Part shown: positions 48,906 to 49,102 of the stretch, piece after piece | How the letters are laid out: the number at the start of each line of letters is the position of its first letter | How positions within the stretch are numbered: position 1 is the first letter of the stretch | From: Eledone cirrhosa | Taxonomy: Eukaryota | Length of the DNA: 64,000 nucleotides | Direction of reading: 5' to 3' | NCBI GenBank assembly: GCA_964016885.1 | Contig: OZ024741.1 | Span: 252,960,001 to 253,024,000 of the forward strand | The notes under the pieces: model-generated | The model's database searches: none | Seen by the model: only the letters and a program-made list of their open reading frames with translations | Told to the model about the DNA's origin: nothing | Program-made: the position numbers and the translations under genes

Positions 48906-48907
<2 letters not shown>

Positions 48908-49100
48908 GGAACGAGTAGGACCCCGACGGCTGAGCTCAAGCTGTTTCGACGGCTAATTCTGGACTCCAGAATTAGCCGTCGAAACGGCTTGAGCTCAGCC
49001 GTCGGGGTCCTACTCGTTCCTATTACCCACTCTACTACCCTAAGTATTGAGTACTTTGGTGCATTATGGTTCACCTGGTTCAGTACCTCATTTCCTTCGT

Positions 49101-49102
<2 letters not shown>
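48906..49102 (+). mobile_element. Palindromic half-hammerhead element, family H
   Basis: Near-perfect hairpin 48906-49022; right arm GAAA-cggct-tgagctc-agccg-TC-ggggtcct; TTGAGTAC at 49047. Confidence 0.85.

What the first reader, a model, noticed from the sequence alone, without database searches (positions are those of the whole stretch)
48906..49102. Family H: a hammerhead converted to a perfect palindrome, with arms covarying between copies
Seen: three copies (28000, 37438, 48906). The right arm reads stem II-GAAA-cggct/agccg-TC-stem I', but where CUGANGA should be there is the reverse complement of GAAA-stem III-TC. Copy-specific differences appear in both arms (aaaggttcagg/cctgaacctttt versus acgagtagg/cctactcgt; ggcagag/ctctgcc versus ggctgag/ctcagcc; ctatttct/agaaatag versus ctaattct/agaattag). 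The left arm ends at the same point in all three. Inference: either the cDNA folds back at ribozyme stem II and copies itself at each insertion, or a ribozyme-dead hairpin is itself the mobile unit.
Basis: partly seen in the sequence, partly recalled or inferred. Interest (0 to 1): 0.8.

Follow-up and report, generated by a model that had tools for sequence, protein, structure and literature searches.

The report
Twin-primed Penelope retroelement mini-hairpins
These hairpins are the shortest insertions of a very abundant Penelope-like jumping gene, likely made when two separate DNA copies of its RNA, started on opposite strands of the target, each ran off the RNA's probable capped start and were joined head to head, rather than by one copy folding back at the ribozyme.

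Summary
The three hairpins are real. They are minimal insertions of a Hydra-clade Penelope-like retroelement (PLE). A natural parent (L066) has an RT plus GIY-YIG frame and a variant hammerhead in its pseudo-LTR. At least 17,544 arms exist genome-wide, inserted in (TA)n. Head-to-head arms with a one-sided tail are a published PLE layout.

- None of 30 centres keeps the parent's loop II and 5' stem-II strand, which fold-back at stem II requires.
- 29 of 30 centres differ, so the hairpin is not the mobile unit.
- The covarying letters are subfamily markers.

Both arms instead stop independently at one wall, the A of TTT-AGTCC inside loop II (65 of 96 tail-less arms end at 53-64 nt). Arms often carry an extra non-parental G there: 127 palindromes have it at both ends. 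A second PLE family shows the same wall motif and extra G. The best reading is twin target-primed reverse transcription from the two known internal start sites, run-off at the capped RNA 5' end, then end-joining. No RNA data could test the start site. The layout is known; I did not find this mechanism in print.

The parts
48906..48965 (-). Tail-less arm of copy C: 60 nt of the PLE pseudo-LTR end, from the putative +1 (A of AGTCC, at 48965 on the minus strand) to the tail-less reverse-transcription start site
   Evidence: matches the 3' end of parent L066 (7681-7740)
48965..49022 (+). Tail arm of copy C up to the tail-less site: 3' half of the hammerhead only. The junction shares T (or TC) with the left arm, so an extra C cannot be read independently in this copy
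48981..49008 (+). Hammerhead 3' half: GAAAC (48981-48985), stem III with near-palindromic loop, GTC cleavage triplet (49001-49003), stem I 3' strand GGGGT
   Evidence: sequence; parent; no Rfam hammerhead match
49023..49102 (+). 80-nt one-sided tail. In internal pseudo-LTRs it runs on into the ORF leader (L040, L066)
48893..48905 (.). (TA)n target, left flank; no target-site duplication can be read
49103..49128 (.). (TA)n target, right flank
37438..37631 (-). Copy B, subfamily B: same two-arm plus tail layout, different centre (TTCTGTCTAGAA)
28000..28198 (+). Copy A, subfamily A: same layout, centre TTCTGCGTCCAG, more diverged

Best explanation
Each hairpin is a minimal insertion of a Hydra-clade Penelope-like retroelement, likely built from two separate cDNAs primed on opposite strands of a nicked (TA)n target, each of which probably ran off the capped 5' end of the element's RNA before the two were end-joined head to head. 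Shown here: the parent, the fixed outer ends 80 nt apart, the independent inner ends, the wall at TTT|AGTCC, the extra G and the filler at the joins. Inferred from the published lizard PLE: both strands are nicked and extended, and RT starts internally at two sites that define the tail. Inferred here: the wall is the transcription start, which lies in hammerhead loop II, so the RNA's 5' end carries only the 3' half of the ribozyme, and that is why the hairpins lack the 5' core. The products are probably dead on arrival.
For: Parent: L066 has an inverted pseudo-LTR with tail, a direct pseudo-LTR running into a 790-codon open frame, and a tail-less 3' pseudo-LTR. It has DKT, RWR, YHDD (YRDD in other copies), AYIG, CNLC and CKH motifs. 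Wall: 65 of 96 position-ordered tail-less arms end at 53-64 nt and 10 exceed 80; 46 of 83 tail arms end in the same window although they started 80 nt further out, so the wall is a sequence position, not a length. Genome-wide, 4,017 of 17,544 arms that reach AGTCC continue with the parental 7 nt, and 2,929 are preceded by G. Both ends with extra C: 127 palindromes, 49 of the 50 listed with a spacer of 2 nt or less, against 47 for four G/T combinations together, 7 with such spacers. Subfamily A: 11 C, 3 G, 1 T, 19 A among 34 arms. Second family J: three of 30 arms stop exactly at GTT|AGTTTC and a fourth reads the same; among non-T neighbours G is 56, A 23, C 21 of the first 100 of 2,734 (p = 2.7e-6 against 1/3). 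Independence of arms: tail-less arm longer in 22, tail arm longer in 19 of 74 pairs; at one segregating site (column 68) 10 of 14 arm pairs differ, against a background of 3.4%. Contigs of public runs show the same left-arm end (48965) joined to varied right-arm positions (one study, possibly the same sample). An untemplated G is attributed to the cap in L1/SVA (PMC3287187). The start site lies in the pseudo-LTR in D. virilis Penelope and Chlamys-3 (PMC8557442).
Against: No RNA run was available, so the start site and cap are untested. In the position-ordered subfamily-B sample the base after GGACT was A 59, C 8, G 7, T 4 of 78 arms: no excess of C over G there, and many joins carry A/T runs. 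The G-selected hits are enriched in one sub-lineage. The wall spans columns 60-64, not one base. In family J 17 of 30 arms run past the wall; in family K the wall is only eyeballed and sits at another motif. Other lineage markers agree between arms (column 8: 107 of 110; column 13: 105 of 108; column 85: 11 of 11), so both cDNAs come from one source lineage and perhaps one RNA molecule. Column 68 lies in a quasi-palindrome with three alleles and could be a mutation hotspot. RTs can add C at any template end, capped or not (own knowledge).
Confidence: 0.7

Rival explanations
1. Two separate cDNAs as above, but the wall is not a capped start: it is a strong RT stop, a processed RNA end, or an endonuclease or repair cut in the AT-rich loop II.
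For: A/T-run filler dominates the main B lineage. The site is AT-rich, and PLE endonuclease prefers AT-rich DNA (PMC11167929). Both walls sit beside AG pairs that look like splice acceptors (sequence).
Against: The extra G at both ends (127 vs 7 with short spacers) and the same TT|AGT context with extra G in family J are not expected from a cut or pause. The arms keep the AG, which a spliced product would lose.
Confidence: 0.17
2. One cDNA folds back on itself (at stem II, or on short inverted matches or an antisense template as proposed in PMC3846280) and copies itself to make the second arm.
For: Arms share lineage markers almost fully, with no cross-subfamily chimera among 136 pairs: 21 A/A, 113 B/B, and two apparent A/B that have matching arms of further subfamilies. 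30 of 74 pairs are symmetric within 4 nt. A minority join inside stems I or III (gaps below -10). Three private variants at columns 24-60 are shared by both arms (2.9% against 0.5% on permutation, maximum 3.6%).
Against: 0 of 30 centres keep the parental loop and 5' stem-II strand. The tail-less arm is often the longer one, up to kilobases, and a tail-less cDNA cannot template the tail. Column 68 differs in 10 of 14 pairs. Both ends carry an added C. The wall lies outside the stem in family J.
Confidence: 0.1
3. The ribozyme-dead hairpin is itself a mobile unit (MITE-like or SINE-like).
For: Very high copy number; short, fixed outer ends.
Against: 29 distinct centres in 30. A continuum of arm lengths up to full-length RT-encoding copies. 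Ends are asymmetric, not terminal inverted repeats. No transposase link.
Confidence: 0.03

Closest known systems
Hydra clade of C-terminal EN+ Penelope-like elements (Craig et al. 2021, PMC8557442; includes Hydra-1_Obim)
   Same: DKT, RW(R/K), CxCx5C linker, CxxC and CxH around the endonuclease E/N, single ORF of about 740 aa, (TA)n targets, hammerhead near the 3' end. Published Hydra proteins show the same sequence blocks by eye.
   Different: A different family: a 12-nt and a 6-aa motif of it are absent from the paper's supplement. Its hammerhead is non-canonical (U3-A8 or mismatched C3-A8 core, loop II of about 33 nt, long stem III). Body about 3.7 kb, tail 80 nt rather than 30-40.
Canonical PLE insertion unit: pseudo-LTR, adjacent inverted 5'-truncated copy, one-sided tail (PMC3846280, PMC8557442, PMC2377424)
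   Same: Head-to-head arms with fixed outer ends and a tail on one side; L002 and L066 are textbook examples.
   Different: Here the minimal form dominates, with a sharp inner wall and an extra G. PMC3846280 explained the inversion by self-priming on an antisense template, which the present counts do not favour.
Poseidon PAc in vitro mechanism (Frangieh et al. 2024, PMC11167929)
   Same: Both target strands are cleaved and extended; two internal RT start sites define the tail; uncleaved RNA is the main template; a dimer is predicted.
   Different: A term search of its main text found no treatment of inverted junctions, cap copying or template jumps. Different clade.
Minimal and variant PLE hammerheads (Cervera and De la Pena 2014, PMC4209133) and animal retrozymes (bioRxiv 10.64898/2026.07.22.740005)
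   Same: Type I hammerhead in the pseudo-LTR, U3-A8 variant, palindromic loop III; motif pairs on opposite strands 100-700 bp apart were noted.
   Different: The hairpins hold only the 3' half of the motif and are not tandem arrays, so they are not retrozymes.
L1 twin priming and cap-derived 5' G (cap G: PMC3287187; twin priming recalled)
   Same: Two priming events on opposite target strands give an inversion; an extra G marks copying to the RNA cap.
   Different: L1 primes at the poly(A) end and internally at variable sites, giving non-overlapping inverted parts (recalled). Here both starts are fixed and both cDNAs copy the same stretch, giving a palindrome.

Membership tests
EN+ Penelope-like elements | Single ORF with RT and GIY-YIG endonuclease linked to the repeat | tested here: met
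   L066 frame 4189-6558 between pseudo-LTRs; motifs read; 965 homologs; same blocks as published Hydra proteins by eye. Pfam and PDB gave no hit, so domain names rest on motifs.
EN+ Penelope-like elements | Pseudo-LTRs in partial tandem with adjacent inverted copy and one-sided tail | tested here: met
   L066, L061/L040, L002
EN+ Penelope-like elements | Hammerhead motif in the pseudo-LTR | tested here: inconclusive
   Both core halves, stems I-III and GTC are present by eye. No Rfam match; the fold of the parent is not better than shuffles (z = -0.7).
Hydra clade | DKT, RWK-like motif, CxCx5C linker, CxxC and CxH, C-terminal endonuclease | tested here: met
   DKT, RWR, CNLC, CKH in L066. CxCx5C is intact in L037, L041, L060, L061 and mutated in L066.
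Hydra clade | (TA)n insertion preference | tested here: met
Hydra clade | Phylogenetic placement with named Hydra families | not tested
Hydra clade | Canonical hammerhead core (CUGANGA) | tested here: not met
   Cores are CTGAGAA 38, TTGAGAA 21 (B) and TTGAAGA/TTGAAAA (A). The paper reports canonical cores in the clade but defines the clade by protein features.
Active hammerhead ribozyme | Self-cleavage at GUC | not testable with these tools
   The hairpins lack the 5' core. The U3-A8 parent could be active; the C3-A8 parent is predicted impaired.
MITE | Terminal inverted repeats, fixed internal sequence, matching transposase | tested here: not met
   Tail lies outside the arms; 29 of 30 centres differ; parent encodes RT.
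Non-LTR retrozymes | Tandem units each with a complete type I hammerhead | tested here: not met
   Dispersed inverted half-motifs

The most novel reading that the evidence does not exclude
PLE head-to-head inverted repeats are made in general by twin priming of two cDNAs, and the commonest product is a pair of strong-stop-like run-off cDNAs from the capped 5' end of the element mRNA. The hairpin centres would then map each family's transcription start directly from genomic DNA. Long copies and partial tandems would arise when a run-off cDNA jumps to a 3' pseudo-LTR, as in LTR-element strand transfer, and placing the start inside the hammerhead would keep the mRNA 5' end from self-cleaving.
Probability: 0.4. 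Interest if true: 0.75.

Novelty: new member of a known kind. Interest (0 to 1): 0.5.

Why it matters
How Penelope-like elements form their tandem and inverted insertions is named as an open task in PMC8557442, and the older proposal was self-priming on an antisense RNA (PMC3846280). Thousands of natural minimal insertions here give a countable record that favours two priming events and run-off at the RNA 5' end. This yields a sharp prediction (a capped start at TTT|AGTCC) and a simple in vitro test with the existing lizard PLE system. The element itself is a new, very abundant Hydra-clade family whose commonest sampled lineage carries a probably impaired hammerhead core.

Tried and rejected
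Rfam: no hammerhead match among the 150 listed of 210 window hits or in the parent. Pfam and PDB: no hit for the ORF. RNA: no RNA holder listed. The four runs are contigs of one study and cannot show RNA starts.

Run-off at the hammerhead cleavage site: 3 or 4 of 83 tail arms begin within 1 nt of GTC^GGGG, but microhomology explains them; inconclusive. Column 68 alleles do not sort by terminal versus internal context or by core type (only 2 internal copies). The subfamily-A site counts were out of register and were discarded; only the family-level pair counts were kept. The context part returned nothing and was redone. In one search three tail arms (L150, L175, L196) were wrongly set to 0; I removed them from the 25, giving 22. 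The 96 ends come from about the first 94 of 7,569 places, all on contig C1, and a few may be counted twice where loci overlap. Core counts are biased by loci chosen for likeness to a CTGAGAA copy. Considered and rejected: splice-acceptor origin of the wall (arms keep the AG), a length limit (arms of 60 and 140 nt end at one site), ongoing arm homogenisation (arm-arm mismatch 3.44% against 3.62% for permuted pairs), assembly artefact (varied joins also in run contigs).

Literature searches for the mechanism; none listed a paper on twin priming or cap run-off in PLEs. Subscription papers are not covered, and bioRxiv supplements were closed.

Full report
Observation. The window holds three related elements in (TA)n: 48906-49102 (+), 37438-37631 (-) and about 28000-28198 (+). 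Each is a hairpin of two arms of about 58 nt followed by an 80-nt unpaired tail. Copy 48906 folds at -120 kcal/mol, z = -21. The right arm reads like the 3' half of a type I hammerhead. Rfam lists no hammerhead match.

Parent. A search of the own genome (3.0 Gb) with the tail gave 1,835 candidates. In 30 loci the hairpin centre varied, and two copies ran on upstream through ACCCC-CTGAGAAG. A search with that upstream part led to copies with a coding frame. L066 is a natural near-complete element: an inverted pseudo-LTR with tail from 3643, a direct pseudo-LTR (4040-4248) whose tail runs on to an ATG at 4339, an open frame to 6558, and a 3' pseudo-LTR ending without tail at 7740. The protein has RWR, DKT, YHDD (YRDD in other copies), AYIG, CNLC and CKH, and other copies keep the CxCx5C linker. 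These are the Hydra-clade features listed in PMC8557442 (section 11 read whole). It has 965 homologs, the best 120 at 36-52% identity, and no Pfam or PDB hit. Parent cores are CTGAGAA (38) and TTGAGAA (21) in subfamily B, and TTGAAGA or TTGAAAA in subfamily A. TTGANAA is the U3-A8 variant of PMC4209133. CTGAGAA breaks the 3-8 pair and is predicted impaired.

Known layout. Head-to-head inverted arms with a one-sided tail are described for PLEs in PMC3846280 (passages), PMC8557442 (passages) and PMC2377424 (passages). PMC11167929 (parts 1-2 of 4 read) shows in vitro that both target strands are cut and extended and that RT starts at two internal sites that define the tail.

Testing the covariation. 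In 110 pairs, arm-to-arm mismatch at columns 24-60 is 3.44%, against 3.62% for permuted pairs; 99 variants are in one arm and 3 in both. Lineage markers agree between arms (column 8: 107 of 110; column 13: 105 of 108), and no cross-subfamily chimera was found in 136 pairs. So both arms come from one source lineage, then decay separately.

Testing fold-back at stem II. The parent's stem II is imperfect (GCTCGGCTATTC, a loop of about 33 nt, GAATTAGCCGTC). Fold-back there would leave that 5' strand and loop in the centre. None of 30 centres has it, and 29 of 30 are distinct. In 74 position-ordered pairs the tail-less arm is longer by 5 nt or more in 22 (25 before removing three anchor failures), the tail arm in 19, and 30 are within 4 nt. 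In L066 the tail-less arm is the 3.7-kb one. A copy-back of the tail arm cannot be longer than its template, and a tail-less cDNA cannot supply the tail. At column 68, 10 of 14 pairs differ between arms, though this site may be a hotspot.

The wall. Of 96 tail-less arms, 65 end at 53-64 nt and 10 exceed 80; 46 of 83 tail arms end in the same window. Column 60 is the A of TTT|AGTCC in loop II. Genome-wide, 17,544 arms reach it, 4,017 continue with the parental 7 nt, and 2,929 are preceded by G where the parent has T. Palindromes with the extra base at both ends number 127 (49 of 50 listed have spacers of 2 nt or less). The control with G or T at both ends gives 47 over four combinations, 7 with short spacers and nearly all others with a GAAT-like piece copied from the arm. 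Against this, the position-ordered B sample shows A 59, C 8, G 7, T 4 after GGACT, with many A/T runs. Subfamily A shows 11 C, 3 G, 1 T, 19 A. An untemplated G is attributed to copying of the cap in L1 and SVA (PMC3287187, passages). TTAGT as an initiator form is recalled, not from a call.

Generality. Two other families in the window have the same layout, and some of their long arms lie next to coding pieces related to the L066 protein. In family J (window 57977; 12,937 exact ends) three of 30 arms stop exactly at GTT|AGTTTC, upstream of its hairpin stem, while 17 run further. Among 2,734 arms with a non-T neighbour there, the first 100 show G 56, A 23, C 21. In family K (759 ends) many arms stop a few bases upstream of an intact CTGATGA core (by eye). 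The wall therefore sits at a different place relative to the ribozyme in each family.

Mechanism. Step 1 (inferred, as in PMC11167929): the RNP nicks both strands of (TA)n. Step 2 (outer ends shown; start sites inferred): RT starts at two internal sites 80 nt apart, one per strand. Step 3 (wall and extra base shown; cap inferred): each cDNA runs to the RNA 5' end, 60 or 140 nt away, and gains C or A. Step 4 (filler and microhomology shown; pathway inferred): the ends are trimmed and joined. Longer arms come from the 3' pseudo-LTR of the transcript or from a template jump (untested). The hammerhead appears converted only because the RNA would begin in loop II.

Novelty. The element is a new family of a known clade and the layout is known. 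Eight earlier AI notes on other genomes reached the same PLE reading (unchecked). Six paper searches listed nothing on twin priming or cap run-off in PLEs; subscription papers were not covered. Of the retrozyme preprint I read part 1 of 5, of PMC4209133 parts 1-2 of 4, and of the PMC8557442 supplement three look-ups. [quoted passage not shown]

Verdict. Observation confirmed; interpretation partly supported. PLE origin about 0.97, two separate cDNAs about 0.87, capped-start run-off about 0.7. Interest 0.5.

Noticed in passing
window 57977-58180: Family J mini-hairpin with tail, about 12,900 exact ends genome-wide; wall at GTT|AGTTTC with extra G; linked to PLE-like coding pieces.
   Followed up: partly
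window 12256-12378 and about 27830-27985: Family K: hairpin and a tailed arm directly beside copy A. Long copies have a canonical CTGATGA core and arms that stop just upstream of it.
   Followed up: partly
window 14725-14944: Hairpin with 107-nt arms carrying a whole U3-A8 minimal hammerhead (TTGAGAA..GAAAC) in both arms.
   Followed up: no
window 50593-50952 and 58572-58815: Further head-to-head inserts in (TA)n; the second has CTGACGA..GAAAC cores in both arms.
   Followed up: no
window 15253 (+), 21407 (-), 39019 (-), 42386 (+): Dispersed CTGATGA..GAAA motifs beside (TA)n, probably ends of other PLE families.
   Followed up: no
window 43928-46964 and 59667-62703: Two 98% identical, oppositely oriented copies of a non-LTR retrotransposon with an RT frame of up to 936 codons and a cysteine-rich insert; class not tested.
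   Followed up: no
window 48350-48413 (-): Rfam tRNA match at 33 bits (gathering 29), possibly a tRNA-derived SINE head.
   Followed up: no
L066 about 7660-7675 and homologous sites: The stretch 8-12 nt upstream of the putative start has three common alleles (AAAAATTTT 21, AAAAATGTT 21, AAACATTTT 8) that do not follow lineage markers and often differ between arms; unexplained.
   Followed up: partly
parent copies L031-L080, L231-L260: The commonest sampled core (CTGAGAA) breaks the 3-8 pair, suggesting that a lineage amplified with an impaired ribozyme (sample biased).
   Followed up: partly
L024/L025/L069: A compound insertion in which both arms carry the tail and one runs on into the ORF leader.
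   Followed up: no
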